The position numbers and the translations under genes were made by a program. This document shows positions 9,649 to 37,073 of a stretch of DNA of 64,000 nucleotides, piece by piece. The notes beneath the pieces were generated by a model that saw only the letters and a list, made by a program, of their open reading frames with translations, made no database searches and was not told the DNA's origin. The stretch comes from Candidatus Omnitrophota bacterium (lineage in GTDB: Bacteria > Omnitrophota > Gorgyraeia > Zapsychrales > JANLHA01). The stretch covers positions 105,514 through 169,513 of the forward strand of contig JACKFJ010000004.1 of the NCBI GenBank assembly GCA_020632535.1, written 5' to 3'. Each line of letters begins with the position of its first letter. The first letter of the stretch is position 1.

Positions 9649-10573
9649 TCTCACCTCCCGCGAGCGTCGCAAAAACATCTTCCAACGAGGCGGTGATGGC
9701 TTTAATCGACTTGATTTCTACACCTTCCCTTTGGGCGGCCTGCCTGATGACTGGTTCGACACCCGCGGCATCCGCAAAATTCAAATGCAAAGTCGTACCA
9801 TAAGCGGTCAAACCAATAACCTGTGGCAATTGCCCAAAAACTTGCGACGCTTTCATAAGCGGATGGCATTCAACTTCAAATAAATTGGCACTGATTTGAT
9901 TCTTAAGTTTTTCAGGTTGACCTATTTTTAAAAGTCGTCCTTTGCTAATAAAACCAATCTGGTTACAGCGTTCAGCTTCTTCCATATAATGTGTTGTCAC
10001 AAAAAGCGCTACCCCTTCGTCCGCCAACTGATACAAAATTTCCCATACCGATCGTCGAGAAACTGGATCAATCCCCGCAGTTGGTTCATCAAGAAACAAA
10101 ACTTTGGGACGATGCAAAATAGCATTGGCCAATCCCAGTTTTTGCTTCCACCCGCCGGATAATTCGCCCGCCAATTTATTGCGCCAAGGTGTTAAACCGG
10201 TGATTTTTAAAATCTCCTCAATACGTTTTTTGGCATCACTTTCATTAATACCGTAAATCCGTCCATAAAATTGCAAATTTTCCTGCACATTCAAATCCGT
10301 ATACAAGCTGAATTTCTGCGAAACATAACCGATTGAGCGCTTGATATCTTCAGAATGATGACTCACATCAAACCCAGCGACAATAGCGTCCCCGCTCGAC
10401 GGAGCAAGGATACCACATAACATACGAATCGTTGTTGTTTTCCCCGATCCATTTGCTCCCAAAAAACCAAAAATCTCCCCGTACTTAATCGAAAAATTGA
10501 TATGATCAACCGCCACAAATTTTCCGAAATTACGAGTTAGGTCATTAACCTCTATCGCGCAATCATGATTCAT
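9641..10573 (-). CDS. ABC transporter ATP-binding protein
   Basis: Walker A GANGSGKTT, signature LSGGWKQKL, Walker B VLFLDEP. Confidence 0.9.
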   Translation of the reverse strand: MNHDCAIEVNDLTRNFGKFVAVDHINFSIKYGEIFGFLGANGSGKTTTIRMLCGILAPSSGDAIVAGFDVSHHSEDIKRSIGYVSQKFSLYTDLNVQENLQFYGRIYGINESDAKKRIEEILKITGLTPWRNKLAGELSGGWKQKLGLANAILHRPKVLFLDEPTAGIDPVSRRSVWEILYQLADEGVALFVTTHYMEEAERCNQIGFISKGRLLKIGQPEKLKNQISANLFEVECHPLMKASQVFGQLPQVIGLTAYGTTLHLNFADAAGVEPVIRQAAQREGVEIKSIKAITASLEDVFATLAGGENE

Positions 10574-13131: not shown

Positions 13132-13827
13132 TCAGGATTCGCAATACAACAAAAATAGGGCAGGTTTTTTATTAATGTCTATTTTCTGTTTTTTCCACTC
13201 GGATATCGTGCAAGTCTTAATCATTTGCGTCGGAGTTGTCAGGTCAACCGCGAGACAAAGCAATGTGGATCCCTGACAATTTTGCAAAATATCCTCGAGC
13301 ACATTCTGATTTCGATACGGTGCTTCCATAAAAATCTGAGTTTGCTTCTCAGATGTCGAGCGTTTTTCAAGATCCTTGATCTTCCTGATCCGCTCTCCTC
13401 GATCCTTGGGCAAATAACCATTAAAGGCAAAATTTTGACCGCTCAAACCTGATGCCATAAGCGCCAACAAAATTGATGATGGCCCGACAAGAGCAATGAT
13501 TTCACAGCCCTGCTGATGAGCCAAGAGAACGACATCTGCACCAGGATCCGCAACGCAGGGGCACCCAGATTCAGAAATAACGCCAATATCTTGATCAACG
13601 ACCTTCATAAAATTTTTCCGTGTTTCTTCCAAAGGTGTATGTTCATTAAGCGCAAAAAAAACACATTCATCAATTTGCATCGATGGATTAATTTTCTTAA
13701 GCAATCGCCGAGCAGATTTGATTTCCTCAACGAAAAAAACGTTCAAATGCTCAATACCCAACGCCGCAGCCGACAGCAGCTGATCGTATTGTTCACTGAT
13801 TGAATTTGGAATGAGGAATATTTTCAT
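13132..13827 (-). CDS. SAM-dependent methyltransferase, tetrapyrrole-methylase fold (RsmI/YraL-like)
   Basis: GVISESGCPCVADPGADVVLLAHQQGCEIIALVGPSSILLALMASGLSGQNFAFNGYLP is typical of this fold. Start taken at MKIFLIPN. Confidence 0.7.
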   Translation of the reverse strand: MKIFLIPNSISEQYDQLLSAAALGIEHLNVFFVEEIKSARRLLKKINPSMQIDECVFFALNEHTPLEETRKNFMKVVDQDIGVISESGCPCVADPGADVVLLAHQQGCEIIALVGPSSILLALMASGLSGQNFAFNGYLPKDRGERIRKIKDLEKRSTSEKQTQIFMEAPYRNQNVLEDILQNCQGSTLLCLAVDLTTPTQMIKTCTISEWKKQKIDINKKPALFLLYCES

Positions 13828-14041
13828 AAACATACAATTCATTTCGCTTTGGTTCTTTAATGATCCAATCATTTGTTCTAAAAATATTATAATGAAGATC
13901 TTTACTACAAAAATCTTCGACACCGATTAATAATTTTGTGCTATATCCATTAATTGGTTTACCGCGCAGTATAATAAAGGTCATGATCTAAAAAAACTTA
14001 AATATTTTTATTTTTCCAACATTCCTAATGAAATAGCTCCA

Positions 14042-15271
14042 TTATCCCGGGCCATCCCCTCCTCCACTCCAACCTGGGCAGCCAGGCTGATCAGGATTAG
14101 CGACACAATCAATAGGACACCATCCACAATCTGTAGGGCAAGTCGCACATGTTTCTGCCCCATTACACACCCAGTCCGGACATCGCGGGGGAATATTATC
14201 CACTTCAGCACAATTTTTTGTGATTTTCACATCATATCCGATGGGATCATTATCAAATAATTTTCCACCATCACTAACTTGTACCCAAAGATGATGAGCA
14301 ACCACAATAAAAGACGCATAATTAGTATCTCCAGTATCATCACCATAGCCACAACATTGCCCATGAACGGGACCATTATCAACCTTATATTGAAAATTCA
14401 AATCCTCAGCCCACACCGTAACCTGAAATTGTGCTGGTGGTAAATAATAATTTGATGAATATGTTACCACTCCACCAACAGGTTTGGTGAAAGTTGAATA
14501 GTTTTTGCTGTCCTCCGTAGGCTCACATGGGTCAACATACAAACAACTGGCACCGACAACATCATAATTCGGATCGCATTGTACGCGACAACGTTTATCA
14601 GGAAAAGCGTCACATTGCCCCGTGGCGGTATACGCAACAGGAGTTAATCCAGTAAGGTCTTTATTATAGTTGGCGGGATCGCACCATGAACTATTCGCGC
14701 TGGGCGTTTCACAGTCAAAAACACAAATCGGGTTGGGTTCACAATAATATTGCGCAATCGGCACTGGGGATCCGCACATCTTTCGCATTTGCATTTGTCC
14801 ATCGGGACAACGGCCACCGGGCGCATTTATTCCTAAAATTCCGCATTGTCCGGTTGACTGCGGCGCTTCACAACACACACTTGTCGGGCTTGGATCATCA
14901 CGACACTCTGACATGGACGCAAAGACATGCATGTTAATCATATCAACTTCACATCCAAGTGGCGCGCAACTGCGCCGAAAAACTTTTTGTGTCTTAGCAC
15001 ATCCCGGAAAAGCGCTCCCATCACCACAACCAGAATCAATCAAATCCGTACAATCACACACAGGTAAATTCAAAGGGACGTCAGGAGCTTGACGAATATC
15101 TTCGCGCTGGGCATCAACCGCGCCTTCTTCAATGACTTTAAAATTGGAATTGATCCCGCGAACAACATATGGACCACCGATGAGGATTCCCGTCATGACA
15201 AAAACAGCCAAAGCCATATATTCAAGGCCGGATTGTCCTCGGTGGGATTTTGATTTTAGCAGGAAAGACAT
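14042..15271 (-). CDS. Flp/class III signal peptide protein with a large cysteine-rich extracellular domain (paralog 1)
   Basis: The N-terminus (KSKSHRG|QSGLEYMALAVFVMTGILIGG) fits the Flp G/XXXXEY prepilin motif. I count 32 Cys in 409 aa. The C-terminus is CPDWVCNGAETCATCPTDCGWCPIDCVANPDQPGCPGWSGGG. Confidence 0.7.
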   Translation of the reverse strand: MSFLLKSKSHRGQSGLEYMALAVFVMTGILIGGPYVVRGINSNFKVIEEGAVDAQREDIRQAPDVPLNLPVCDCTDLIDSGCGDGSAFPGCAKTQKVFRRSCAPLGCEVDMINMHVFASMSECRDDPSPTSVCCEAPQSTGQCGILGINAPGGRCPDGQMQMRKMCGSPVPIAQYYCEPNPICVFDCETPSANSSWCDPANYNKDLTGLTPVAYTATGQCDAFPDKRCRVQCDPNYDVVGASCLYVDPCEPTEDSKNYSTFTKPVGGVVTYSSNYYLPPAQFQVTVWAEDLNFQYKVDNGPVHGQCCGYGDDTGDTNYASFIVVAHHLWVQVSDGGKLFDNDPIGYDVKITKNCAEVDNIPPRCPDWVCNGAETCATCPTDCGWCPIDCVANPDQPGCPGWSGGGDGPG

Positions 15272-15321
15272 AGTTGAATTATAAAAGGAAGATCATTTAA
15301 AACAATGAAAACTTATCGCGA

Positions 15322-16539
15322 TCAACCCCCTCCTCCTCCACTCCAACCTGGGCAGCCGGGCTGATCAGGATTAGCGACACAATCAATAGGACACCATCCA
15401 CAATCCGTAGGGCAAGTCGTACATGTTTCTGTCCCATTACATACCCAGTCTGGACATTGCGGAGGAATAGCGTCAAAATCACCACAATTTGTTGTAACTT
15501 TCACATCATATCCAATGGAACCCGACCCAGAATGTCCCCCCTCGATAACTTGCACCCAGAGATGGCTTCCAGAAACATTAAACGAGGCATAATTGATATC
15601 ACCATTACTATCCTTATAACCGCAACATTGCCCCTGAACAGGGCCATTATCAACTTTAAACTGAAAATTCAAATCCTCAGTCCACACGGTAACTCGAAAT
15701 TGAGCTGGCGGGATATAGTAATTTGATGAATATGTCGCTGATCCGCCGGCGTTGACAGCGCTATTCGAATAATAGGCGATATCCTTAGGCTCACATGGGT
15801 CAACATACAAACAGCTAGCACCGACAACATCATAATTCGGATCGCATTGTACGCGACATCGTTTATCTGGAAAAGCATCACATTGCCCCGTGGCGGTATA
15901 TGCAACAGGAGTTACACCAGTAAGATTTTTATTATAGTTGGCAGGATCGCACCATGAACTATTCGCGCTGGGCGTTTCGCAGTCAAAAACACAAATCGGG
16001 TTGGGTTCACAATAATATTGCGCAATCGGCACTGGGGATCCGCACATCTTTCGCATTTGCATTTGTCCATCGGGACAACGGCCACCGGGCGCATTTATTC
16101 CTAAAATTCCGCATTGTCCGGTCGACTGCGGCGCTTCACAACACACACTTGTCGGGCTTGGATCATCACGGCATTCTGACATGGCCGCAAAAACATGCAT
16201 GTTAATCATATCAACTTCGCATCCAAGTGGCGCGCAACTGCGCCGAAAAACTTTTTGTGTCTTAGCACATCCCGGAAAAGCGCTCCCATCACCACAACCA
16301 GAATCAATCAAATCCGTACAATCACACACAGGTAAATTCAAAGGGACGTCAGGAGCTTGACGAATATCTTCGCGCTGGGCATCAACCGCGCCTTCTTCAA
16401 TGACTTTAAAATTGGAATTGATCCCGCGAACAACATATGGACCACCGATGAGGATTCCCGTCATGACAAAAACAGCCAAAGCCATATATTCAAGGCCGGA
16501 TTGTCCTCGGTGTGATTTTAGTTTTGGCGAGAATAACAT
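15322..16539 (-). CDS. Flp/class III signal peptide protein with a large cysteine-rich extracellular domain (paralog 2)
   Basis: Start taken at MLFSPKLKSHRGQSGLEY. The first roughly 245 aa are nearly identical to paralog 1. The next roughly 110 aa are only about two-thirds identical. The C-terminal Cys knot is conserved. Confidence 0.7.
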   Translation of the reverse strand: MLFSPKLKSHRGQSGLEYMALAVFVMTGILIGGPYVVRGINSNFKVIEEGAVDAQREDIRQAPDVPLNLPVCDCTDLIDSGCGDGSAFPGCAKTQKVFRRSCAPLGCEVDMINMHVFAAMSECRDDPSPTSVCCEAPQSTGQCGILGINAPGGRCPDGQMQMRKMCGSPVPIAQYYCEPNPICVFDCETPSANSSWCDPANYNKNLTGVTPVAYTATGQCDAFPDKRCRVQCDPNYDVVGASCLYVDPCEPKDIAYYSNSAVNAGGSATYSSNYYIPPAQFRVTVWTEDLNFQFKVDNGPVQGQCCGYKDSNGDINYASFNVSGSHLWVQVIEGGHSGSGSIGYDVKVTTNCGDFDAIPPQCPDWVCNGTETCTTCPTDCGWCPIDCVANPDQPGCPGWSGGGGG

Positions 16540-16595
16540 AGGCAAAGTATATAATAATATCAAATACTAAACAATACTTTTATAGTGAACTGTCA

Positions 16596-16635
16596 CAAAA
16601 GAGAACGTCCCGAAAATTTCTCCTCGGGACGTCTC
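16596..16635 (-). terminator. intrinsic terminator after the TM-helix-repeat gene
   Basis: Stem acgtcccga (16605-16613) with tcgggacgt (16624-16632), followed by a U-run on the minus strand. Confidence 0.6.
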
Positions 16636-18739: not shown

Positions 18740-19267
18740 ATGAAAAAAATCCTTTTGGTATTTGTTCTACCGTTTGTCGTTCTATCGTTTGTCGTCGCAA
18801 AAGCCGAAGCGTTGGATTACAACACCGCATACATGGTCACTGATAATAACAGCCTCACATTGAGCGTCGACGGATCCGGTGATTATTCCTACACAACAAA
18901 TCAAACACCATGGGTTTATTTAAAACTCAAACTCAGCGAGCTTAACTTAACCGCGCCGCTAAATGTTTTGTGGAGCTGGTCGAGCTTTTCTAACACTTCT
19001 ATCAACGAAACCAAACTCGAACACATTAGTCTTGCCGGATTAAGCACAGACAAAGAAGTTTGGAGTGCCGCTCCAGAACCGTGGTGGTCAGCCAATGGCG
19101 GAACCGGCAAATGGACCGTCGATGTTGCCTGGCTTAACGCACATGGCGCCTACGGAACCAGCACAGCAAATTTTAATGTCACTCCTGAACCCCTCAGCAG
19201 CGCATTATTATTATTCGGCGGTGTTCCGTTAGCAGCCGCATTGTTACGCAAAAAGAAAACAGTATAA
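18740..19267 (+). CDS. PEP-CTERM sorting-domain secreted protein
   Basis: Signal peptide. The C-terminus (VTPEPLSSALLLFGGVPLAAALLRKKKTV) has the PEP motif, a TM segment and a basic tail. Confidence 0.85.
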   Translation: MKKILLVFVLPFVVLSFVVAKAEALDYNTAYMVTDNNSLTLSVDGSGDYSYTTNQTPWVYLKLKLSELNLTAPLNVLWSWSSFSNTSINETKLEHISLAGLSTDKEVWSAAPEPWWSANGGTGKWTVDVAWLNAHGAYGTSTANFNVTPEPLSSALLLFGGVPLAAALLRKKKTV

Positions 19268-19292
19268 AAAAAAATTTGTTCTCGTATTTAAA

Positions 19293-19328
19293 AGGGTGCT
19301 TGTCAAAAACAGGCACCCTCTTTTATTT
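19293..19328 (+). terminator. intrinsic terminator or attenuator after the first PEP-CTERM gene
   Basis: gggtgc (19294-19299) pairs with gcaccc (19313-19318), followed by cttttatttg. Confidence 0.5.
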
Positions 19329-19360
19329 GTCTAAAAAAACCACAACAAAGGAGAATCACA

Positions 19361-19951
19361 ATGCGCAAAACCATCGTAAAACTCAGTATTTTAACCATCT
19401 GCACATTTTTGCTTATTTCAGCAAAAGCTCACGCCCTCAATTATGAAACAGCGTACATGGTCAGAGATAATAACAGCCGCATTCTCAGCCTTGATGCCGC
19501 CGGTGATTACAGCTATAACGCTGGCGAAACACCTTGGGTCTATATTAAATTCCAGCTTGCCGATCTAGCGATTGACTCCCCATTGCACATGCTTTGGGTT
19601 TGGTCCTCTAACGATGATCCCGATATCACTGAATCCAAAGTACAAAGTTTTTCACTTTCAAGCCTCAACACTGACAAAGAACTTTGGAGCTCAGCTCCGC
19701 AACCGTGGTGGAATAATAACGGCGGACCCGGACAATGGCACGTAGATGTCAATTGGTTTAATGTTCACGGAACAAATGGAATCAGTTCAGCCAATTTCAC
19801 ATCTTGCCCAAGCGGTGGAATCGCCGGCAGAGTCGCACCTTGCGGACCAGTTGGCCCGGTTGTGACCCCTGAACCTTTAAGCACCACACTCTTTTTGCTT
19901 GGCGGCGTCCCGCTTCTCGCGGCAATTCGCAAAAAGCAAAAAACAGTTTAA
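19361..19951 (+). CDS. PEP-CTERM sorting-domain secreted protein (paralog)
   Basis: Shares the YxTAYMV.DNNS and PWW motifs with 18740..19267. The C-terminus is VTPEPLSTTLFLLGGVPLLAAIRKKQKTV. Confidence 0.85.
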   Translation: MRKTIVKLSILTICTFLLISAKAHALNYETAYMVRDNNSRILSLDAAGDYSYNAGETPWVYIKFQLADLAIDSPLHMLWVWSSNDDPDITESKVQSFSLSSLNTDKELWSSAPQPWWNNNGGPGQWHVDVNWFNVHGTNGISSANFTSCPSGGIAGRVAPCGPVGPVVTPEPLSTTLFLLGGVPLLAAIRKKQKTV

Positions 19952-19975
19952 TTTTGAAGCGTTAACAACTAAGAT

Positions 19976-20005
19976 AAGGGGCATGTCCCCAAGGACGTGC
20001 CCCTT
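19976..20005 (+). other. strong hairpin between the PEP-CTERM gene and the exosortase gene
   Basis: aaggggcatgtcc-ccaa-ggacgtgcccctt forms an 11-bp stem with one G-U pair. There is no U-run. Confidence 0.4.
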
Positions 20006-20030
20006 AGTTGAAATTGGGATAACACTCATT

Positions 20031-20864
20031 ATGTTCACAAAATATTTCAAACACTTTCCTACTATTTTGCCTTGGGTTCTAGTCGCAGGGCTTTACGCGC
20101 CGGTCTTTCTTGTGCTCTATCAAGAACGCTGGGAAATGGTGGATTACGGACACGCTCCATTTATTTTACCGCTCGCACTTTTTATCGTTTGGCTCAAAAG
20201 AAAACAACTCGCCACAATCGCCCAAAACTCACAGCCCAATTTTTACATTCCCGGATTTGTCCTGATTATTTTCAGCTCATTTCTCTTTACGTTCGGCTGG
20301 CGCTGGGATTATCTTTTGATTCAAACAATTTCACTCATTCCGCTTCTCGCAGGACTCATCAGTTTTCTTTACGGACCCAAAATGATACGGCCGTTGATTT
20401 TTCCAATTCTCTACCTGTTTCTTCTTGTACCACCACCAATCGGCATTTTAGATAGCATCACGCTCCCAATGCGGCATTTTGCATCCGCCGCGACCGAAGT
20501 GATTCTGCAAATCTTTCAATACCCCGTTTCACGAACCGGACTGCTCCTCTATTTAGGCGACCACGAAATCTTTCTCGGCGCGCCCTGCAGCGGCTTTCGT
20601 TCACTGATTACCATGTTTTCACTCGGACTTATTTACGTTTATTTTAATAAAGGAGCATGGACCAAAAATTTGATTCTGATTTTGGCCATTATCCCGCTTG
20701 CGCTCATCGGAAACATCATCCGCGTCATCGCAATATGTCTTCTAACATATTATTTTGGCGAGAAAGTCGGACAAGGATTTTTACATGATTTTAGCGGCAT
20801 GCTGGTTTTTCTAATCATGATTATCGGCCTCATGGGATTAGAAAAACTAATACGAAAAAAATAA
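20031..20864 (+). CDS. exosortase (EpsH/Xrt family)
   Basis: Polytopic membrane protein with the catalytic-type motifs GAPCSGFRSL (Cys), IGNIIRV (Arg) and HDFSGMLVF (His). ATG at 20031 (MFTKYFKH). Confidence 0.85.
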   Translation: MFTKYFKHFPTILPWVLVAGLYAPVFLVLYQERWEMVDYGHAPFILPLALFIVWLKRKQLATIAQNSQPNFYIPGFVLIIFSSFLFTFGWRWDYLLIQTISLIPLLAGLISFLYGPKMIRPLIFPILYLFLLVPPPIGILDSITLPMRHFASAATEVILQIFQYPVSRTGLLLYLGDHEIFLGAPCSGFRSLITMFSLGLIYVYFNKGAWTKNLILILAIIPLALIGNIIRVIAICLLTYYFGEKVGQGFLHDFSGMLVFLIMIIGLMGLEKLIRKK

Positions 20865-20867
20865 TAG

Positions 20868-20897
20868 ATTCCCGACAGAAGATTTCGGGGATGACAA
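20868..20897. repeat. single hairpin repeat unit (cccga..tcgggg family)
   Basis: attcccgacagaagatttcggggatgac is the same family as the units at 36.6, 44.5, 59.8 and 61.1 kb. Confidence 0.6.
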
Positions 20898-20921
20898 AAT
20901 CAATAGTATGACACCACTTAT

Positions 20922-21566
20922 ATGAAAAATTTACGCTTCCATATCGCATCGCTCATTTTGATCGTGACGATCATCGTTGCCTTTACTTTGCCCAAGCCCA
21001 AATATCAAGGGACATCGATTCTACAAGATCTTAATATGCCATTTACACTTGGCAATCAATGGCAAAGTGTGGATTACACCAACAATTTGAGTACAACCAA
21101 AGATGACCGATTCAATTTTCTAAGCGGCGCCTTTGCCCGCATTTACGGCACACAAGACGGCAAAAGCCTATTGTTTCTTATTCTCGACGCTGGCAACTTC
21201 CATCATCCTCAACTATGTTATGGCGGTTCAGGATTTAAAACCAAAGAATTATCGCTTACCGAATTGACAACACAAAACAAAGCAGTCAAAGTCCGCACAT
21301 TCTTAGCCAAAAAAGATTCGGGAGAAACAATTGTCGTGATGTATTGGATGGTCATCAATAAACAAAAAGTGGATTGGACCGAGCAAAAATTTGCGCAATT
21401 GTGGCATTCGCTGTTTAACAAAAAACAAGTTGGCCTGATGACACGGTTAGACATTCCTGTCTCCGAAAACAAAATTGACGACGCTGTCACACTTGGACAA
21501 AAATTTATTAAAGATTTAACGAAGAATTTGTCGAACGAAAAGCAAGAGTGGATGTTTGGTAGGTAA
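20922..21566 (+). CDS. exosortase-associated EpsI family protein
   Basis: Single N-terminal TM segment, about 210 aa, HHPQLCYGGSGF motif, and position immediately after the exosortase gene. Confidence 0.7.
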   Translation: MKNLRFHIASLILIVTIIVAFTLPKPKYQGTSILQDLNMPFTLGNQWQSVDYTNNLSTTKDDRFNFLSGAFARIYGTQDGKSLLFLILDAGNFHHPQLCYGGSGFKTKELSLTELTTQNKAVKVRTFLAKKDSGETIVVMYWMVINKQKVDWTEQKFAQLWHSLFNKKQVGLMTRLDIPVSENKIDDAVTLGQKFIKDLTKNLSNEKQEWMFGR

Positions 21567-26484: not shown

Positions 26485-27432
26485 TTATAATTGCTCTAAA
26501 TATTGCGAAATTGTATTTAAAATTTCATCAAATGATATTTGCCCCTGATAATACAATGTTGCAGTTTTTAGGTATTCCTTCTTAAATTGATCTCTTGTCT
26601 TCATATCTTTGAGCACAAAAGCATCATGTTCAGCAATAGAAAGTTTTTGGTCTGCGGCGGGGAATCTTTTCTTCTTATGCTCAATATATTCTTGCGTTCC
26701 AATAAATTCTTGAACCGTCTGATTCTCCAAAAGGCAAGCAACATCATAATAATGTCTAATAAAATTAGCGGGGATTCTTCCCGTTTCGTGTTGCTGACGG
26801 AATTTGGTTACAATAGTTTGTAGTTTTTCTACGAGTGTATATCCCGGATGATAGCATTTTACCTGATATGCTTTATTGTCTTTGACATCCAACCCTCTTT
26901 CCTGCGCAAACTCAAGCGCCCAAGAACTGATATCCACAAAAGCATTAGGTGTCACATCATCAAAGCCAACTTCTAATAAAACGCCCTCCTTGATTCCCTC
27001 GACAACGGTAAAAGTTGGCTTGTAATAAAGTCGAATACCACCACTAAAATACTTATCATTATCAAATTCATGATCACGGACAACCCGATTGATCCCATTA
27101 ATCTTAATGTTTTCTGCCAACCAATCATAATATTGCTTACGGCTCTGGCACTGAGCAGGTTTTATTTGATTCTTTTTTGTTTTTACATCCATTTTAGCAG
27201 GTGGTTTGATACGAATATCTATATCCTCTGAAAAACGATGAATAATATTATATCCTTTGGAAAGTGATGTACCTCCCTTTAATTCGAATTCAAACCCATC
27301 GAGATGCAGACCGTATAAAACATGCATGATCCAATAATCTTTTTCCACCAAACTGCTATTTATATTCTTTTGACGCTCTACGGCTCGCAAAAGCTCTTTA
27401 AACTCAGGGTGATTGTGTAAATAATCAAGCAT
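26485..27432 (-). CDS. AbiEii/AbiGii (DUF1814) nucleotidyltransferase toxin
   Basis: EKDYWIMHVL...LKGGTSLSKGYNIIHRFSEDIDI signature. 8-nt overlap with the upstream partner gene. Confidence 0.8.
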   Translation of the reverse strand: MLDYLHNHPEFKELLRAVERQKNINSSLVEKDYWIMHVLYGLHLDGFEFELKGGTSLSKGYNIIHRFSEDIDIRIKPPAKMDVKTKKNQIKPAQCQSRKQYYDWLAENIKINGINRVVRDHEFDNDKYFSGGIRLYYKPTFTVVEGIKEGVLLEVGFDDVTPNAFVDISSWALEFAQERGLDVKDNKAYQVKCYHPGYTLVEKLQTIVTKFRQQHETGRIPANFIRHYYDVACLLENQTVQEFIGTQEYIEHKKKRFPAADQKLSIAEHDAFVLKDMKTRDQFKKEYLKTATLYYQGQISFDEILNTISQYLEQL

Positions 27433-28018
27433 GTACTAAAACTTCCTCTTGCATCCAGCTATTAAATAAACTTTTTGTCCTCTCACCCGCATAGGCATTG
27501 ACTGCACGCTTCATCTGCGGCTTATACTCTGCTAATATTTTTTCTTTAACACTTTTTAAAAGATTGTCCCTATCTTCTGCTAATTCATTCAAATTATTCA
27601 ACAAATCAACAAACAAAAACTCTTTTGAAAGTTCCCGAGGGAATTTATGTTTTAAACAAAAATCAAAAACCTTACCTCCCAGCACAAATTCTCCATGTCG
27701 CTTATGATTATAAACAACGGTTTTATTGTAAAGCTGTGTTGTTCCGACCTCTAATGAATTATAAAAGTTAGGAGACGTCAAAAGAAACTCATCACTTTTT
27801 AAGAAAGCGCGCACAAGCTTTTCATCTTCGGGGGGAACAACTCCAAAAGATGCTTTTGCAGGGCAATAGTACAACCCTTGTGACATTTTTTGCAAAGTCC
27901 CATCATCTACAAGTTCTTTTAGATGTCGATCAATCGCAGTCGACCATTGATTGAGGTCACCCCTTCGATAAACTTGACCCGGTTTTAAATGTTGTTTTAA
28001 CTCTTTTAAAGCCTTCAT
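27425..28018 (-). CDS. AbiEi-type (DUF6088-like) antitoxin
   Basis: Position and overlap with the AbiEii gene. The N-terminal segment (GQVYRRGDLNQWSTAIDRHLKELVDDGTLQKMSQGLY) resembles a winged helix. Confidence 0.6.
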   Translation of the reverse strand: MKALKELKQHLKPGQVYRRGDLNQWSTAIDRHLKELVDDGTLQKMSQGLYYCPAKASFGVVPPEDEKLVRAFLKSDEFLLTSPNFYNSLEVGTTQLYNKTVVYNHKRHGEFVLGGKVFDFCLKHKFPRELSKEFLFVDLLNNLNELAEDRDNLLKSVKEKILAEYKPQMKRAVNAYAGERTKSLFNSWMQEEVLVHA

Positions 28019-28764: not shown

Positions 28765-29249
28765 CTAATATCCCTCAACTTTATGTTGCAGTTTATGTAA
28801 ATCTATATCTTGCAAATCACTATGTTCATATCCATATCCTTGTTTGGCTTCTTTCCCTCGTCGATGAGCTAATTGTTTTGTCGGAGGAACTCTAATTTTT
28901 GATCTTTGTCCTCTCTCGATACTATTAATATCTTGTTTTATCCATCCTTTGTCAGATTTAGAAACATTTTTATCAGTTAATAAACTTTTCAATTTTTGTT
29001 GTTTGCCTGTACGACCGGAAATCTTACATATACCCTTCGCAACTTTTCCTCCCCCTTGTACATAACCTGCCCCTCCAGGCAAAAATGGAGTACCTAACGC
29101 GACAGAATCATATGCCAGTGATGCTCCCGTCAATAGACCGGGTTCAGTTAAAAAATAGTATAAACTCAACTGCCAAGTAACATAATCGGAAGGTGTTTCA
29201 ACGATTAACCCATACGGATCAACAAAATTGATCGGATCGCTTTCGACAT
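28765..29249 (-). pseudogene. displaced RHS C-terminal toxin tip CT4 (HNH/EndoVII-like?), severed from its core by the transposon
   Basis: Reads (V)ESDPINFVDPYGLIVETPSDYVTWQLSLYYFLTEPGLLTGAS...KGIC, identical to the main RHS protein. It then has a unique tail: ...KGWIKQDINSIERGQRSKIRVPPTKQLAHRRGKEAKQGYGYEHSDLQDIDLHKLQHK. No upstream core remains; the transposon end is at 29250. Confidence 0.7.
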
Positions 29250-29350
29250 GATACCGTCGAAGAACCCTGCATTTCCAAGTGGACGGACTTTCCGTCCTTT
29301 TTAAAAGAGCAAATTTATCACGACACAGCTATACCGTGTCTTTTAATCTC

Positions 29351-30979
29351 CTAAAATCCCATCACCACCTCCGCTTGTCCTGCAAATCCTTCCAAAACTA
29401 ACTTAATCCACCGCTTAATATTCACGGCAGCGGCAGTGAATAATGCCTGCAATTGTACTTTTGGTAATCCTCGATACTTCGCCCGTCTTAGACCGTGATA
29501 TCGTGTCAATTCTGATAACTTTCCTTCGATCGGCGGACGTAATTTCATATCTTTTTTAAATTCATCCGTTTTGTTGTAGATTTCGGCCTCCCGCAACTCC
29601 TTATTAAACATGCTTATTCCTACTGTCCGTCGCCCTTCCTCAGCTTTGGTACATTCTTTTCTCACCGGACACTTCCTGCACACGCTCATTGGAAAATGAA
29701 ATTGTTTCAACCCATGCTGATGATCTTCAAAATAGGTATTTGTCTTCACACCCTGCGGACATGTTAACGTCAGCGTTTTTTCATCATAATGAAACAAGCT
29801 TTTCGGATAAACTTTTTGAGTAGATTGATTTGCATTCCGCAACGGCGCAACCATCATTGTCGCATTATCATTTAACAGTTTTCGATGCACCCCATTCGCG
29901 TAAGCCGTGTCACCGATTAATTTCTGCGGTACAAGGCCGCTCTTCTTTTGTTCCACTATCATTTGTACTGTCGGCTCACCATCAGGGCGGTTACCGCGCA
30001 TAACATTAATGTTGGTTATAAAATGATTCTCGACAGCCTCCGTCACATTCGCCTTATACCCCACAAATCGTTTTGTGTCTGACTTACATCCATAGCGGGC
30101 ATCCTCGTCGATTGGACTTACCAATAAATCCTTCGGCTTGTCTTTATATTCCCGCTCTTCAATCTTTTCTTGTGATTCTTTGACGTTTTCCTGTAAAATT
30201 CGCTTTAACATCTCGATCCGTTTTCTCAAATCACGGCCAACATTTGCACCTTCTATTTCTTCCAAAACACATCGCGCGTCCATCACTACTTTTACCAGTT
30301 TTACTTTGCGCTTTTCAATATCTAATCGCCCCTCATCGGCCTGATTTACTTTTTCCCGTGTATATTCTGCCATATCAATCTTTCCAAGAATCTTTTCGTA
30401 AACTTTTGGCTTCTGCCCTTTAAGCGGTTTTAATATCTCACGGACACCTTTCTTAACCAGCGCAACCACCGTCGGAATCGCAATATCTGCGATCATGTGG
30501 GTCGCATCAATCCGCTGAATCTCATCGCGCTTGATTAACTCTAAATCAATTAATCGATTTAAAACTTTATCAAAGATCATCTTGCTCTGGCCATTGTCCA
30601 ATAAGCGTTTCCTAAAATCTCCCAAACTTGAATGGTCGAATGGGCGCTCGTTAAGTTTTAATCCAAGCGCGTATTTGATTTCAATATCGTACATACAAGC
30701 CCGTTCCATCTCGCGATCAGAAAGATTTTTATGAAATTGCAACAGCAAAACCATTGCTAATAATTTCGGCGAGATCGGCGGACGCCCATTGTCCTGACAA
30801 TACATCGTTTCAAAATCTAATTCATCCATCAGAGGGGAGACAATTTCTTTGAACTTACGGTAATAACTTTCGGCAGGAATCAGTTCTTCGCAGAGATACT
30901 CGGCATCATAAAACGAAGCTTGTCGTTGGGGATTTTTGAGCATTCTGAAGTCTCCTTTGCGGTTGTTTATTAGCTCCAT
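29351..30979 (-). CDS. IS1182-family-like (IS5 superfamily) DDE transposase
   Basis: N-terminal DUF772-like region (ISPKLLAMVLLLQFHKNLSDREMERACMYDIEIKYALGL). DDE candidates are RIDATHM, LIGDTAYANG and IEGKLSELTRYHGLRRAKYRG. 542 aa. Confidence 0.8.
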   Translation of the reverse strand: MELINNRKGDFRMLKNPQRQASFYDAEYLCEELIPAESYYRKFKEIVSPLMDELDFETMYCQDNGRPPISPKLLAMVLLLQFHKNLSDREMERACMYDIEIKYALGLKLNERPFDHSSLGDFRKRLLDNGQSKMIFDKVLNRLIDLELIKRDEIQRIDATHMIADIAIPTVVALVKKGVREILKPLKGQKPKVYEKILGKIDMAEYTREKVNQADEGRLDIEKRKVKLVKVVMDARCVLEEIEGANVGRDLRKRIEMLKRILQENVKESQEKIEEREYKDKPKDLLVSPIDEDARYGCKSDTKRFVGYKANVTEAVENHFITNINVMRGNRPDGEPTVQMIVEQKKSGLVPQKLIGDTAYANGVHRKLLNDNATMMVAPLRNANQSTQKVYPKSLFHYDEKTLTLTCPQGVKTNTYFEDHQHGLKQFHFPMSVCRKCPVRKECTKAEEGRRTVGISMFNKELREAEIYNKTDEFKKDMKLRPPIEGKLSELTRYHGLRRAKYRGLPKVQLQALFTAAAVNIKRWIKLVLEGFAGQAEVVMGF

Positions 30980-31018
30980 TATAACTCATTCTCCGTCGAC
31001 AAATAGGCATTTTGTGAA

Positions 31019-31255
31019 TTATTTTGTTTGCTGATTTCTTTCAAATATACCTACTACACCAATTAGAGAATCCTTGGTTAACAAATTATAATCCTCTAAA
31101 TGAACGTGTCCTTGATTGGGCTTTGCAATAAGTTTTAGAATCAAATCTGAGAGCTTTTGAAGACCTTCTTTTGTTCCATAAACACAAACCTCATTATTCT
31201 CAAATCTCAACTCTAAAGTTTTATCCTTAAAATCAGGTTTTCTAAATTCTGACAT
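31019..31255 (-). CDS. 78-aa immunity-like protein for CT2 (transposon cargo)
   Basis: Starts 12 nt after the CT2 stop, behind aagggaaag. It is small and cytoplasmic, and sits in the position of an immunity gene. Confidence 0.55.
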   Translation of the reverse strand: MSEFRKPDFKDKTLELRFENNEVCVYGTKEGLQKLSDLILKLIAKPNQGHVHLEDYNLLTKDSLIGVVGIFERNQQTK

Positions 31256-31270
31256 TTCTTTCCCTTTCTT

Positions 31271-32490
31271 TTACCACGTCCACCAGTGGGGATGTCCCCA
31301 AGGCTTTCCGTGATGAGCTTTATCCAATCTAAATCCCCATTTAAATCGTTTACTTAATATCCTAAAAATATTATTACCTTGTTTACCTATTTCAATTCCT
31401 GCATAGTCAGCCGCAATTGCTACTGCTGTTGCTCCTGCTGCTGTCCCGACGGCAATTCTTTCACCCGTTTTTTCCCATCCGCATGATCCTTCCGTATACT
31501 TCATCGGATCGCCCCAACCTGTCGGACCATTTGATCCCCACTCCGACATCGGTTGGCCGTATGGACCCGGTAATGCGCTTTCATAAAACCACCAATTAAA
31601 TTGATCTTCCCCCCAATACAATCCAAGCGGATCTATTCTATTAATAGGATCGTTGCCGGTGTAAGCGTAAAGGTTGGTTTCGGAGATAAGTTTTCCGACA
31701 CTATCAACATAACCGTATAGATCAACATCTCCCCCATCAAACCCAATCGGGTCTTTGGCGGTCCAGCGGCCGGTTGCGGGGTCGTAGTCACGAAAACCAA
31801 ATCGGACTAAACCAATATCCCGATCATGTAAACCTCCCGCAAAACCAAACGGGACAGTAAATGTCGGGGCGGTGTCAGCGAGAATGTTTCCAAATGAGTC
31901 ATAATCAATTCGTTTAACGATTGCGCCAGTTGAACTCATCACAGCACGCAATGATCCAACTTGATCATAGCTCAAATAATACGTCGCGCTGTCCTTGGTC
32001 ATCACACTCGGCATACGACTATCCGAGTACTCAAAGCGCATCAAAAGATTATCTGATCCGTCATAAACAGCTAAGAGCTGTGTTAATCCCGCCCAGAGAT
32101 ATTTTTCAATGACCGAACCGTTAATCTTCTTGGCGATACGACGACCCAAAGGATCATGGACATATTCAATCGTCCGTCCGTCGGGCAAAGAAACATTTAA
32201 CAACTCACCGCGAGATGAATAATTGTACGTCGTTATAGACGAACCATCAGTTTTACGCGATAAGAATCCATCGGCATCATATTGATACGTCACACTGCCA
32301 ACGCTTAAGAGCTGATCTTCCGCATTGTATGTCAAAGAACGCCCGGCAATGCCGCGCAGAGAGTTCATTTCATAAGTGCGCGTGCCTAACGGATTAGAAC
32401 CAGTATATCGATACTCCTCAACGAGAGCATTGTCTTTTTCAACGTGTGTCAGACGGCCAGTGGCATCGTACGTGTAAACGGTATTTGACG
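31271..32490 (-). pseudogene. 5'-truncated orphan RHS core fragment A fused in frame to transposon-borne toxin tip CT2
   Basis: The open frame from about 32497 (..NTVYTYDATGRLTHVEKDNALVEEYRYTGSNPLGTRTYEMNSLRG..) is homologous to main RHS residues from about 1985 onward. At DVDLYGYV it continues into element-encoded DSVGKLISETNLYAYTGNDPINRIDPLGL plus a roughly 115-aa tip. Confidence 0.75.
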
Positions 32491-32534
32491 AACTAAATTA
32501 GGTGTGACCCCTTTTTCTTTTCTTTGGAATTATT

Positions 32535-32837
32535 TTAGTACGACTGTATTAAGGATTTTGTTTCATAACAATCGAAGCAAATAAAGACATAAATCAATCC
32601 ACAATCCGCAAGAGAATATTCTGGACCGATAGTATCAAGTTGTGCATAAAAACTCATATCGTGCTTACAAGAATCACAAATCGGGACATCACTTTCTTGA
32701 ATAAATTCAGGTTTCCCACCAATCTTATGCCGTTTCCCTTGTATTGGATTTTCTATACTCCAATCAAATGGTTTTATCGATTTTGCCTCAGTACTATTTG
32801 GCACCAAATTAATTTTAAACTCGGGAAGTACTTTCAT
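32535..32837 (-). CDS. DUF1963/YwqG-like putative immunity protein (for CT3)
   Basis: KIGGKPEFIQESDVPICDSCKHDMSFYAQLDTIG...DCGLIYVFICFDC resembles the C-terminal signature of the YwqG family. It starts 14 nt after the CT3 stop. Confidence 0.5.
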   Translation of the reverse strand: MKVLPEFKINLVPNSTEAKSIKPFDWSIENPIQGKRHKIGGKPEFIQESDVPICDSCKHDMSFYAQLDTIGPEYSLADCGLIYVFICFDCYETKSLIQSY

Positions 32838-32851
32838 ATATAGTTCTCCTC

Positions 32852-33360
32852 TTATTTATATGATTGTATAGGCAAGCCACTTAAACCATATTCGTCCATT
32901 AATTTTCCACCAAATTGGTAAATATCCTGAGGGGTGGCGTTCGGGTTACTCTTTATAAAGTTCTCCCATCGTTCGTTCCATTTGCCGGGCATATTATTTA
33001 GTCCATTCCCGTGAACACCCTTAAGATGTGCTGTATTCTGCGGAATAGATACAGTAAATTTGTCAATATCTATACCCTTCGAGTTAAAGAATGGTTTAAA
33101 TCTTTGCGGGAATATGTGGTGTTTTGCCATTTTAGGAGCGGTAAGTAAACAAATTTTACTTGCACCTTGGGCATACCCTCCCCCACCGGGCAGAAAAGGA
33201 AGGCCTAACGCTACTGAGTCATAAGCTAACGACGCCCCAGTCAACAAACCTGGTGCAGTTGTAAAATAATAAAAACTTAACTGCCAAGTAATATAATCGG
33301 AAGGCGTCTCGAAGACTAGCCCCTCTGGATCCACCCCGTTTACCGGATCATTGAGAACAT
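32852..33360 (-). pseudogene. displaced RHS toxin tip CT3 (HHIFPQ..WN..W..F type, AHH/DUF2380-like?), severed by the transposon
   Basis: Reads (V)LNDPVNGVDPEGLVFETPSDYITWQLSFYYFTTAPGLLTGAS..., then KHHIFPQRFKPFFNSKGIDIDKFTVSIPQNTAHLKGVHG...KWNERWENF. The transposon end is at 33361. Confidence 0.7.
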
Positions 33361-33461
33361 GATACCGTCGAAGAACCCTGCATTTCCAAGTGGACGGACT
33401 TTCCGTCCTTTTTAAAAGAGCAAATTTATCACGACACAGCTATACCGTGTCTTTTAATCTC

Positions 33462-35090: not shown

Positions 35091-35129
35091 TATAACTCAT
35101 TCTCCGTCGACAAATAGGCATTTTGTGAA

Positions 35130-35366
35130 TTATTTTGTTTGCTGATTTCTTTCAAATATACCTACTACACCAATTAGAGAATCCTTGGTTAACAAATTAT
35201 AATCCTCTAAATGAACGTGTCCTTGATTGGGCTTTGCAATAAGTTTTAGAATCAAATCTGAGAGCTTTTGAAGACCTTCTTTTGTTCCATAAACACAAAC
35301 CTCATTATTCTCAAATCTCAACTCTAAAGTTTTATCCTTAAAATCAGGTTTTCTAAATTCTGACAT
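35130..35366 (-). CDS. 78-aa immunity-like protein for CT2 (copy B)
   Basis: Identical to 31019..31255. Confidence 0.55.
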   Translation of the reverse strand: MSEFRKPDFKDKTLELRFENNEVCVYGTKEGLQKLSDLILKLIAKPNQGHVHLEDYNLLTKDSLIGVVGIFERNQQTK

Positions 35367-35381
35367 TTCTTTCCCTTTCTT

Positions 35382-36498: not shown

Positions 36499-36506
36499 TG
36501 TTAGTA

Positions 36507-36632: not shown

Positions 36633-36753
36633 AAGTATTAGAAAATATCAAAGAACAAAATGACAAAAAACAAACCGACTCTCGTCGGCAATTACTTCAC
36701 TAAACAACTATAAGAAAGTAGGCGACGTCACTACTTCTCCCCTCCCCATACTT

Positions 36754-37068: not shown

Positions 37069-37073
37069 CGTGA

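What the first reader, a model, noticed from the sequence alone, without database searches (positions are those of the whole stretch)
14042..16539. Tandem 410-aa cysteine-rich proteins with Flp/class III prepilin leaders and a localised hypervariable segment
- Both proteins start with (K/S)KSHRG|QSGLEYMALAVFVMTGILIGG. This fits the Flp-type G/XXXXEY processing motif and the class III signal peptide consensus.
- Flp pilins are normally 50-80 aa. These proteins carry a roughly 370-aa domain with about 32 Cys by my count.
- The first roughly 245 residues of the two paralogs differ at only a handful of positions, and the DNA is nearly identical between 14560-15250 and 15830-16520.
- The next roughly 110 residues are only about two-thirds identical. 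The terminal CPDWVCNG.ETC.TCPTDCGWCPIDCVANPDQPGCPGWSGGG knot is conserved again.
- Inference: this pattern suggests gene conversion of the stalk plus diversification of an exposed tip, for example in a pilus-tip adhesin or a minor pilin.
- No Tad/TadV machinery is present in this window.
Basis: partly seen in the sequence, partly recalled or inferred. Interest (0 to 1): 0.6.

Follow-up and report, generated by a model that had tools for sequence, protein, structure and literature searches.

The report
Tandem cysteine-rich modular pilin genes
Two neighbouring genes of an uncultured Omnitrophota bacterium most likely encode large pilus subunits, members of a sizeable, undescribed family that has a Flp-like pilin front end and, in relatives, often lies inside pilus-assembly gene clusters; this pair shares a front part kept nearly identical by gene conversion and carries two old, different end modules.

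Summary
Two minus-strand genes, A (14042-15271, 409 aa) and B (15322-16539, 405 aa), each have 32 Cys and an identical G|QSGLEY N-terminus.

- **Mosaic pair.** Residues 21-250 are 99% identical, residues 251-365 about 63%, and the tail about 90%.
- **Not hypervariable.** dN/dS in the divergent segment is 0.27. A related Omnitrophota genome carries the same two segment types at 78% and 89% amino-acid identity. These are two old cassettes. The flanks are homogenised within each genome: 54 of 56 informative sites group by genome in the flanks, and 27 of 32 group by cassette type in the centre.
- **Family.** The genes belong to an unnamed family of 479 clusters at 50% identity, with no Pfam or PDB match. 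The N-terminus is strongly pilin-like: G/A at -1, Q+1 94%, E+5 97%, Y+6 89%, P22 100%. Ten of 30 N-termini hit Pfam Flp_Fap, and AlphaFold2 predicts a 42-residue N-terminal helix.
- **Machinery.** Family members elsewhere lie inside pilMNOPQ/pilBC-like clusters, at the head of Tad-like clusters, or beside small secretins. Flp-sized short forms also exist. This window, and all 10 loci of its own subclade, have no such machinery nearby.

Verdict: modular type IV filament subunits, a new variant of a known kind.

The parts
15322..16539 (-). Gene B (upstream copy), 405 aa, identical to NCBI protein H6754_06195 of a Candidatus Omnitrophica MAG. Architecture: Flp-like leader, long helix, Cys-rich module, B-type cassette, Cys knot.
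14042..15271 (-). Gene A (downstream copy), 409 aa, same architecture with the A-type cassette.
16504..16539 (-). Leader peptide of B (MLFSPKLKSHRG), ending at the predicted prepilin cleavage site G|Q.
   Evidence: Cleavage is inferred.
15236..15271 (-). Leader peptide of A (MSFLLKSKSHRG), ending at the predicted cleavage site G|Q.
   Evidence: Cleavage is inferred.
15101..15235 (-). Pilin-like alpha-1 helix of A (residues 13-57; E at +5, Y at +6, G21-P22). Equivalent in B: 16369-16503.
   Evidence: AF2 helix 15-56; logo
14537..15079 (-). Conserved Cys-rich module of A (residues about 65-245, 19 Cys invariant among the 13 closest homologues). Equivalent in B: 15805-16347. This is the unit shared by the whole family.
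   Evidence: AF2 pLDDT 82-92; no PDB fold match
14146..14515 (-). A-type variable cassette (about residues 253-376), predicted all-beta.
   Evidence: low-confidence AF2
15420..15783 (-). B-type variable cassette, the orthologue of the cassette in the second gene of locus L001.
14045..14143 (-). C-terminal Cys knot (CPDWVCNG.ETC.TCPTDCGWCP...) and Gly-rich tail of A, homogenised with B. Equivalent in B: 15325-15417.
16546..16551 (-). TATACT hexamer 6 nt before the ATG of B. It is part of a TTTTATACTTTrrCTATG motif shared, exactly or within one or two bases, by 9 of the 19 family start regions examined, all in the window's subclade. A has TATAAT at 15278-15283. Possible -10 box of a leaderless mRNA.
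   Evidence: sequence comparison. The consensus scanner did not call it. This is inference.
16604..16633 (-). Terminator-like hairpin of the upstream mechanosensitive-channel gene. It marks B as the start of a new transcription unit.
13793..13984 (-). Remnant of a membrane-protein gene: the last 52 codons of a 429-aa protein that follows the gene pair in the related genome L001. Two membrane-protein genes are missing here.

Best explanation
A and B are modular subunits of a type IV filament, that is, large 'modular pilins'.

**Architecture of each protein**
- A short basic leader, probably removed by a prepilin peptidase after Gly12. This would leave Gln as the first residue.
- A Flp-like hydrophobic alpha-1 helix with Glu5, Tyr6 and Pro22. 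This would anchor the protein in the inner membrane and then in the filament core.
- A disulfide-rich module of about 180 aa that defines an Omnitrophota family.
- A beta-rich cassette of about 120 aa.
- A small C-terminal Cys knot.

**Assembly and role**
- Assembly would be carried out by a T4P-like (PilBCMNOPQ) or Tad-like machine encoded elsewhere in the genome.
- The C-terminal cassette is the likely ligand-binding or adhesive part.

**Evolution of the pair**
- The two genes carry two anciently diverged cassette types.
- Gene conversion keeps the assembly-competent front part and the extreme tail nearly identical within each genome.

**What is shown and what is inferred**
- Shown: the sequence features, family membership, the family's linkage to pilus machinery, and the mosaic evolutionary history.
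- Inferred: cleavage, incorporation into a filament, position at the tip, and adhesion.
For: **Pilin-like N-terminus**
- Logo over 112 representatives: -1 is G (59%) or A (40%); Q+1 94%; E+5 97%; Y+6 89%; G21 95%; P22 100%. Median leader length is 10 aa.
- Ten of 30 family N-termini hit PF04964 Flp_Fap (best E = 4.8e-5) and 2 hit Class_IIIsignal.
- The top NCBIfam hit is a class III signal peptide family, TIGR04205.
- AF2 predicts a helix at residues 15-56, followed by a confident domain at 65-245.

**Family size and shape**
- The family has 479 representative clusters at E <= 1e-3. They share profile positions of about 5-265 and have diverse C-termini.
- Short forms of about 51-60 mature residues, consisting of helix only, exist.

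**Linkage to pilus machinery**
- In L076 the family gene lies between PilM_2, PilN, PilO and a secretin on one side and T2SSF, MshEN and two T2SSE genes on the other.
  - L053 shows the same layout with both the secretin and the two ATPases; L051 shows the two ATPases.
  - L038, L039, L042/43 and L044 have the secretin at the same 2.7-2.9 kb spacing.
  - These members match the N-module HMM with E = 8e-31 to 2e-47 (L076 itself 3e-25).
- In L079 and L034 a relative heads a cluster of RcpC, secretin and a TadZ::TadA fusion.
- Of 39 dereplicated loci with at least 6 kb of flank, 15 have a secretin and 16 have a secretin or a TFF ATPase.
- Three long members carry a C-terminal Hint domain, and two or three carry a Gly_rich_2/GP38 phage-adhesin-like domain.

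**Concerted evolution**
- N-module nucleotide identity is 97.4% within the window and 87-89% between genomes.
- Cassette B versus its orthologue is 86.7% identical; A versus B is 72%.
- Informative sites: 54 G versus 2 T over nt 1-729; 27 T versus 1 G over nt 757-1126; 4 G after nt 1134 (G = group by genome, T = group by cassette type).

**Background**
- T4aP and Tad systems are common in Omnitrophota (PMC10066038).
- The Flp motif is GXXXXEY (PMC10934763).
Against: - No pilus machinery or prepilin peptidase lies in the 64-kb window.
- None of the 10 loci of the window's own subclade has a secretin or TFF ATPase within 10 kb.
- The two window proteins themselves get no Pfam or NCBIfam hit, not even for the N-terminus.
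- The rest of the genome could not be searched, so the presence of a peptidase and a machine in this organism is unproven.
- The Tad-linked relatives share mainly the helix and not the whole Cys-rich module.
- The fold of the cassette could not be modelled (pLDDT 30-47), so 'adhesive' rests on analogy.
Confidence: 0.68

Rival explanations
1. The proteins carry a class III signal peptide but are not filament subunits. A prepilin peptidase cuts them, and they then stay as surface or periplasmic binding proteins. The comparison is to archaeal sugar-binding proteins with pilin-like leaders, or to substrates and pseudopilin-like parts of a secretion system.
For: - The leader and helix features are the same as in the best explanation.
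- The genes of this subclade are unlinked to any machinery.
- They lie in an exopolysaccharide and exosortase locus.
- The best NCBIfam match of family N-termini is a class III protein tied to an archaeosortase system.
Against: - Full-module family members occupy the pilin position within pilMNOPQ/pilBC clusters, where no other pilin gene is seen.
- Helix-only short forms look like ordinary Flp-type subunits.
- The near-invariance of the whole helix (G21, P22, Y23, R26, N29) fits subunit packing better than simple anchoring.
Confidence: 0.17
2. The N-terminus is an ordinary uncleaved Sec signal-anchor. The proteins are type II membrane proteins with a disulfide-rich ectodomain, and the pilin-like motif is coincidental.
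For: - There is a single N-terminal hydrophobic stretch.
- The window proteins have no direct Pfam pilin hit.
- No peptidase gene is nearby.
Against: - A charged Glu at a fixed distance from a G/A in 97% of 112 representatives is not expected for a signal-anchor, nor is Tyr at +6 or Pro at +22.
- Relatives hit Flp_Fap.
- The family shows strong linkage to secretins and pilus ATPases.
Confidence: 0.07
3. The proteins are polymorphic toxin-like effectors. A conserved N-terminal trafficking part carries exchangeable C-terminal effector domains.
For: - C-termini differ between family members, even at orthologous positions: P0007 versus P0008.
- Three members carry Hint domains.
- The window also holds an RHS/teneurin toxin locus.
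Against: - No toxin domain was found in A, B or 64 long relatives.
- No small immunity-like gene follows A or B.
- The cassettes are under purifying selection and conserved across species.
- The RHS locus is 13 kb away and unrelated in sequence.
Confidence: 0.05

Closest known systems
Modular type IV pilins (e.g. Streptococcus sanguinis PilB and PilC; ETEC CofB), as defined by Raynaud et al. 2021, PMC8179133
   Same: - An N-terminal pilin part with a class III signal peptide is followed by one or more grafted functional modules.
- Those proteins are minor subunits thought to sit at the tip and to bind ligands.
- Here too the C-terminal modules vary widely between family members.
   Different: - Those proteins have the classical G|F/M-T-L-I-E N_methyl leader (IPR012902) and a globular pilin fold before the extra module.
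- Here the leader is the Flp type, G|QxxLEY.
- The N_methyl model gave no hit.
- The pilin part is a helix only, and it is followed directly by a Cys-rich module with no PDB match.
Flp pilins and TadE/TadF/TadG pseudopilins of Tad (type IVc) pili
   Same: - The GXXXXEY processing motif is shared (for the definition).
- Relatives hit Pfam Flp_Fap.
- Helix-only short forms of Flp size exist.
- Some relatives head clusters of RcpC, secretin and TadZ/TadA.
   Different: - A and B are 405-409 aa with 32 Cys, against 50-80 aa for Flp pilins.
- There is no TadE or Flp_Fap model hit for A or B.
- Position -1 is Ala in 40% of the family and +1 is almost always Gln.
- The full-module relatives are linked to PilMNOPQ/PilB/PilC-type genes, not Tad-type genes.
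Archaeal class III signal peptide proteins (PF04021/UPF0333; EppA-type pilins with Q at +1)
   Same: - The leader is short and ends in [KR]-[GA].
- Gln is at +1, Glu at +5, and an aliphatic residue at +9.
- Two of 30 N-termini hit Class_IIIsignal and 3 of 30 hit TIGR04205. One short form is named UPF0333 by JGI.
   Different: - The hosts are bacterial, diderm organisms with secretin-linked loci.
- The hits are weak.
- Pyroglutamate formation at Gln1 is only an inference from the archaeal case, which I recall from memory.

Membership tests
Type IV filament subunits (type IV pilins, class III signal peptide) | Short, positively charged leader ending in Gly (or Ala), followed by a hydrophobic stretch of about 20 residues with Glu at +5 | tested here: met
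   A and B have KSHRG|QSGLEY.... Family logo: -1 G/A 99%, E+5 97%, R at +26 99%.
Type IV filament subunits (type IV pilins, class III signal peptide) | [quoted passage not shown] | tested here: met
   AF2 predicts a helix at residues 15-56, with pLDDT only 50-68 in the helix. The domain that follows is confident.
Type IV filament subunits (type IV pilins, class III signal peptide) | Encoded with, or dependent on, a conserved assembly machine (ATPase, platform protein, prepilin peptidase; secretin in diderms) | tested here: inconclusive
   - Family level: met. See L076, L053, L051, L079 and L034.
- This window and its subclade: no machinery within reach.
Type IV filament subunits (type IV pilins, class III signal peptide) | Cleavage by an A24 prepilin peptidase and polymerisation into a filament | not testable with these tools
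   Needs biochemistry or imaging.
Flp/Fap pilins (PF04964) of Tad pili | GXXXXEY motif at the processing site | tested here: met
   G12-QSGL-E17-Y18 in both proteins. Motif definition from PMC10934763.
Flp/Fap pilins (PF04964) of Tad pili | Match to the Flp_Fap profile | tested here: inconclusive
   No hit for A or B, whole or N-terminus only. Ten of 30 family N-termini hit, best E = 4.8e-5, below or near the curated level.
Flp/Fap pilins (PF04964) of Tad pili | Small size (about 50-80 aa precursor) with little beyond the helix | tested here: not met
   A and B are 409 and 405 aa with a large Cys-rich part. Flp-sized short forms exist only as separate genes in relatives.
Flp/Fap pilins (PF04964) of Tad pili | Location in a tad/cpa locus with TadV, RcpC/A and TadZ/A/B/C | tested here: not met
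   Absent from the window. Present next to distant relatives L079 and L034.
Modular pilins sensu Raynaud et al. 2021 | N-terminal IPR012902/N_methyl pilin signature plus an extra non-pilin domain | tested here: not met
   No N_methyl (PF07963) hit. The two-part architecture is present only by analogy.
Polymorphic toxins | C-terminal toxin domain and an adjacent immunity gene | tested here: not met
   No toxin family hit in A or B, nor in 64 long relatives apart from Hint in 3. No small downstream ORF between A and the rsmI-like gene other than a gene remnant.

The most novel reading that the evidence does not exclude
Omnitrophota have their own class of pilus in which a Flp- or archaeal-type helix fused to a disulfide-rich module is the main, perhaps the only, subunit built by a PilMNOPQ/PilBC-type machine. 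That would be a hybrid between Tad-type pilins and T4a-type machinery. Unlinked tandem copies such as A and B would supply interchangeable tip cassettes that set which host or prey cell, or which surface, these ultra-small and possibly predatory bacteria attach to.
Probability: 0.25. Interest if true: 0.75.

Novelty: new variant of a known kind. Interest (0 to 1): 0.55.

Why it matters
- **Gap in knowledge.** Omnitrophota are uncultured, mostly ultra-small bacteria suspected of living on other cells. Published surveys have catalogued their pilus machineries (PMC10066038), and my literature searches found no description of this subunit family.
- **What this adds.** This work defines a family of about 480 sequence clusters with no Pfam domain and no match among solved structures. 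It has a Flp-like pilin front end, a new Cys-rich module and exchangeable end modules, and it is physically linked to pilus genes in many relatives.
- **What it enables.** The family gives concrete candidates for the adhesins that mediate attachment.
- **A clean natural example.** The pair shows part-gene concerted evolution: the assembly part is homogenised while two binding cassettes are preserved.
- **Annotation.** The family could be turned into a profile so that these genes stop being annotated as 'hypothetical protein'.

Tried and rejected
- **Direct family searches.** Pfam and NCBIfam on A and B gave nothing.
- **PDB sequence searches.** Searches with the family profile and with the N-terminal profile gave nothing meaningful.
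- **Cassette structure.** A second AF2 run on the C-terminal cassette with 5 sequences gave pLDDT 47. It indicates only an all-beta composition. No fold search was run on it.
- **Cassette relatives.** The resemblance to segments of P0059 and P0080 is a visual and motif-based impression only.
- **Positive selection.** Tested and rejected: omega is 0.09-0.33 in every comparison.
- **Promoter.** The consensus promoter scan did not call the conserved TATACT element.
- **Link to the exosortase and EPS locus.** Considered because of synteny in L001, L002 and L005. Other subclade members lie in unrelated contexts, so it is kept only as a note.
- **Encoding contig.** Look-up of P0001 failed because there was no record.
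Full report
**1. What is in the sequence**

On the minus strand lie two ORFs in tandem. A is at 14042..15271 (409 aa). B is at 15322..16563, with the likely ATG at 16539 (405 aa). B is identical to the NCBI protein H6754_06195 of a Candidatus Omnitrophica MAG.

Each protein has 32 Cys. Both begin with a short basic stretch ending in Gly, followed by QSGLEYMALAVFVMTGILIGGPYVVRGIN.

A codon-based comparison gives three zones.
- aa 21-250: 99% identical, dS 0.106, dN 0.006.
- aa 251-365: 63% identical, dS 0.94, dN 0.245, omega 0.26.
- aa 366-409: 89% identical.

**2. The divergent segment is two old cassettes, not a hypervariable region**

A syntenic locus in another Omnitrophota genome (L001, MAG Kpj58rc) has the same gene pair, between the same mechanosensitive-channel and rsmI-like genes.

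Identities by region:
- The N-terminal module is more alike within a genome than between genomes. Nucleotide identity is 97.4% in the window pair and 92.5% in the L001 pair, against 87-89% between genomes.
- The central segment groups by type. B against the second L001 gene is 86.7% nt and 89% aa. A against the first L001 gene is 79% nt and 78% aa. A against B is 72% nt and 65% aa.

Counting parsimony-informative sites in the four-gene alignment:

| Region of the gene (nt) | Sites grouping by genome | Sites grouping by cassette type | Sites grouping by array position |
|---|---|---|---|
| 1-729 | 54 | 2 | 0 |
| 757-1126 | 1 | 27 | 4 |
| after 1134 | 4 | 0 | 0 |

The switches are sharp.
- They fall near codons 244-252 and 376-378.
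- This places the cassettes at about 14146-14515 (A) and 15420-15783 (B).

Selection and age:
- dS between species is about 0.55-0.66 for the N-module and 0.60-0.69 for orthologous cassettes.
- dS between paralogous cassettes is 0.82-0.86, so the two types predate the species split.
- Omega is 0.09 for B-type orthologues, 0.21 for A-type orthologues and 0.27 for paralogues. There is no sign of positive selection averaged over the segment.
- The order of the two types along the array is reversed between the two genomes.

The pattern is concerted evolution, by gene conversion, of the front part and of the extreme tail. Two distinct middle cassettes are retained.

**3. The family**

The word-indexed search found only 19 relatives, all from Omnitrophota-type sources. 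The exhaustive profile search found far more.
- It found 479 representative clusters at E <= 1e-3, and 388 at E <= 1e-10.
- The shared unit is profile positions of about 5-265: leader, helix and Cys-rich module.
- Lengths of the listed hits run from 74 to 800 aa (median 355), most of them 240-560 aa, and the C-terminal extensions are very diverse.

Conservation and annotation:
- Nineteen Cys are invariant among the 13 closest homologues.
- Fifteen Cys are invariant among the 20 sequences of alignment A2.
- No Pfam or NCBIfam model covers A or B.
- Of 64 long members, only 3 show Hint domains and 2-3 show a Gly_rich_2/GP38-type phage adhesin domain.
- Members at an orthologous position (MsrB-MsrA-gene-PFOR) carry different C-terminal modules: P0007 against P0008.
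- Genome records that hold the family are labelled Omnitrophota or 'uncultured Planctomycetales' MAGs.

**4. Is the N-terminus a pilin leader?**

Over 112 representatives, anchored on the invariant Pro:

| Position | Residue frequency |
|---|---|
| -1 | G 59%, A 40% |
| +1 | Q 94% |
| +5 | E 97% |
| +6 | Y 89% |
| +16 | G 87% |
| +21 | G 95% |
| +22 | P 100% |
| +23 | Y 98% |
| +26 | R 99% |

- The median leader is 10 residues.
- This fits the Flp motif GXXXXEY (definition in PMC10934763) and the class III signal peptide pattern.
- Scanned alone, 10 of 30 family N-termini hit PF04964 Flp_Fap (best E = 4.8e-5) and 2 hit PF04021 Class_IIIsignal. The window's own N-terminus does not hit.
- NCBIfam's best match is TIGR04205, a class III signal peptide family.
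- AlphaFold2 with the 20-sequence alignment predicts a helix at 15-56 (pLDDT 50-68). A confident domain follows at 65-245 (pLDDT 82-92). The cassette region is unmodelled, at pLDDT about 30.
- Foldseek against the PDB finds nothing.

**5. Short forms and linkage to pilus machinery**

A search with the N-terminal profile returned 43 proteins, nearly all 45-109 aa.
- They consist of the leader plus helix only, giving 51-60 mature residues. This is the size of Flp pilins.
- Complete short ORFs are seen in independent genomes: L021, L022/L023, L024, L027 and L077.

A scan of metagenome contigs gave 62 further loci. Three recurrent arrangements appear.

(a) *Inside a T4P-like cluster.*
- In L076 the family gene lies between a divergent PilM_2-PilN-PilO-(114 aa)-Secretin operon and a convergent set. 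The set comprises T2SSF, an MshEN protein and two 570-aa T2SSE ATPases (Pfam).
- The same layout, with the secretin and the two ATPases, is seen in L053; L051 shows the two ATPases.
- L038, L039, L042/43 and L044 have the secretin at the same 2.7-2.9 kb spacing.
- These members match the N-module HMM over positions 7-250 with E = 8e-31 to 2e-47 (L076 itself 3e-25).
- No classical pilin gene is seen in these clusters.

(b) *At the head of a Tad-like cluster.*
- In L079 and L034/L036 a relative heads the following cluster (Pfam).
  - a SurA-like PPIase
  - RcpC
  - a secretin with a TonB_C domain
  - a ParA/TadZ::T2SSE fusion
  - DUF192
- L086 shows the secretin and ATPase at matching positions.
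- L069, a strong full-module member, is 4.8 kb from such a cluster.
- The L079, L086 and L034 proteins share mainly the helix.

(c) *Beside a small secretin.*
- Short or long forms lie 18-2000 bp from small secretin genes.
- The loci are L027/28/82, L070, L087, L056, L052, L064, L031 and L060.

Counts:
- There are 39 dereplicated loci with at least 6 kb of flank. Of these, 15 contain a secretin and 16 contain a secretin or a TFF ATPase.
- For a gene placed at random in a genome of about 2 Mb with two or three secretin genes, I would expect a few per cent. This is my own rough estimate.
- None of the 10 loci of the window's subclade (L001-L015) shows such linkage.

The window itself holds the following.
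- an exopolysaccharide and sialic-acid-like biosynthesis region
- exosortase, EpsI and PEP-CTERM genes
- an efflux system
- two AbiE toxin-antitoxin pairs
- an RHS/teneurin toxin locus

It holds no pilus gene.

**6. Most likely mechanism**

- *Shown:* the proteins have the sequence hallmarks of type IV filament subunits. They belong to a family whose members are embedded in pilus-assembly clusters.
- *Inferred:*
  - A prepilin peptidase encoded elsewhere cuts after Gly12.
  - The helix inserts in the inner membrane.
  - A T4P-like or Tad-like machine extracts the helix into a filament.
  - The disulfide-rich module and the cassette are displayed outside the cell, probably at or near the tip because of their bulk. 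The comparison is with the modular pilins in PMC8179133.
  - The cassette binds a ligand.
- The 32 Cys fit an extracytoplasmic, disulfide-bonded protein; this rests on established knowledge of such proteins.
- Gene conversion of the helix and Cys-rich part would keep both copies compatible with the same assembly partners. Two binding specificities would be preserved alongside.
- Literature shows that T4aP and Tad systems are common in Omnitrophota (PMC10066038).

**7. Rivals**

The alternatives are:
- a class III leader used only for export or anchoring;
- a plain signal-anchor;
- a polymorphic toxin.

They are weighed in the dedicated fields. The conserved Glu5/Tyr6/Pro22 and the gene-cluster evidence speak against the last two. 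The first cannot be excluded for this unlinked subclade.

**8. Comparison with known systems and novelty**

- Functionally, the closest concept is the modular pilin.
- By leader, the closest families are Flp/TadE-type and archaeal class III proteins.
- A and B fail the size and locus criteria of Flp pilins, and they lack the N_methyl signature of classical modular pilins.
- They are best described as a new variant. It combines a Flp-type helix, an undescribed Cys-rich module and exchangeable C-terminal modules. In relatives it is linked to both PilMNOPQ-type and Tad-type machines.
- My literature searches found no description of this family.

**9. Limits**

- The remainder of this genome was not searchable.
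- The cassette fold is unknown.
- Processing and filament incorporation are untested.
- The 'leaderless mRNA' idea rests only on a TTTTATACTTTrrCTATG motif shared, exactly or within one or two bases, by 9 of the 19 start regions examined, all in the window's subclade. The promoter scanner did not score it.

Noticed in passing
window 28765-44243: A polymorphic-toxin locus.
- A 2389-aa RHS/teneurin-like protein (37074-44243).
- Two 365-aa orphan RHS C-terminal cassettes follow it (35382-36479 and 31271-32368).
- Each cassette is paired with a copy of a 542-aa DDE transposase (33462-35090 and 29351-30979).
- Small ORFs with Ntox8 (28765-29169) and DUF2380 (32852-33334) domains are also present.
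- The repeat period is 4111 nt.
   Followed up: partly
window 13793-13984; L001 12468-15057: The 63-aa ORF just downstream of gene A is the last 52 codons (81% identity) of a 429-aa multi-pass membrane protein. In the related genome, that gene and a 442-aa membrane protein follow the gene pair. Both genes are missing from the window, leaving this stub. Neither membrane protein has a Pfam hit on record.
   Followed up: partly
window 15272-15290 and 16540-16560; upstream of family genes in L001, L002, L005, L007, L008, L010, L011, L013, L014: The sequence TTTTATACTTTrrCTATG sits directly before the start codon: a TATACT/TATAAT hexamer, 6 nt, then ATG. It is shared, exactly or within one or two bases, by 9 of the 19 family start regions examined, all in the window's subclade, whose proteins are only 40-50% identical. 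No Shine-Dalgarno sequence is present. This suggests a -10 box and leaderless transcripts. The consensus scanner did not call it.
   Followed up: partly
L021 2854-3060; L022/L023 about 10001-10207; L024 10001-10204; L027 9568-9762; L077 9974-10177; proteins P0155-P0197: Flp-sized genes (51-60 mature residues) encode only the family's leader and helix. Several lie 18-1000 bp from small secretin genes of 238-346 aa. Others lie next to a Na+/H+ exchanger-EIIA gene, with a classical GFTLVE pilin gene about 1 kb away.
   Followed up: partly
L076 5861-17668; L053; L051: A compact T4P-like cluster holds pilM-N-O-(P)-secretin, pilC, two MshEN-T2SSE ATPases and two MshEN-only small proteins. Its only pilin-like gene is a Cys-rich family member of 398-539 aa. 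A conserved protein of 328-356 aa with no Pfam hit lies next to it.
   Followed up: partly
L079 9986-18003; L034 9992-17283: Tad-like clusters carry a ParA/TadZ domain fused to the TadA-type ATPase (719 aa), a secretin with a C-terminal TonB_C domain, and a SurA-like PPIase between the pilin-like gene and rcpC.
   Followed up: no
window 18740-21566: The gene pair lies beside PEP-CTERM proteins, an exosortase and EpsI, as do relatives in L001 and L002. L005 shares only the WecG and BNR genes. The best NCBIfam hit of family N-termini is TIGR04205, a class III signal peptide protein tied to archaeosortase D. Other relatives lack this context, so the link may be coincidental.
   Followed up: partly
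L002 8655-13190: A relative (P0005) is preceded by an overlapping paralogue of about 450 aa (456 aa as called in L002; 448 aa, P0012, in L003/L004). It is followed by an HxsD-like gene, a radical SAM/SPASM-type gene and an 86-aa ORF, which form a peptide-maturation-like set.
   Followed up: no
window 26485-28018 and 47194-48829: An AbiEii toxin with its AbiEi antitoxin lies at 47194-48829. A second AbiEii gene lies at 26485-27432, next to an ORF with no Pfam hit. One of the two sits inside the polysaccharide gene cluster.
   Followed up: no
window 52118-59262: The exopolysaccharide region contains a sialic-acid-type set. It comprises NeuB, a cytidylyltransferase, a polysialyltransferase-like protein, a pyruvyl transferase and acetyltransferases.
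   Followed up: no
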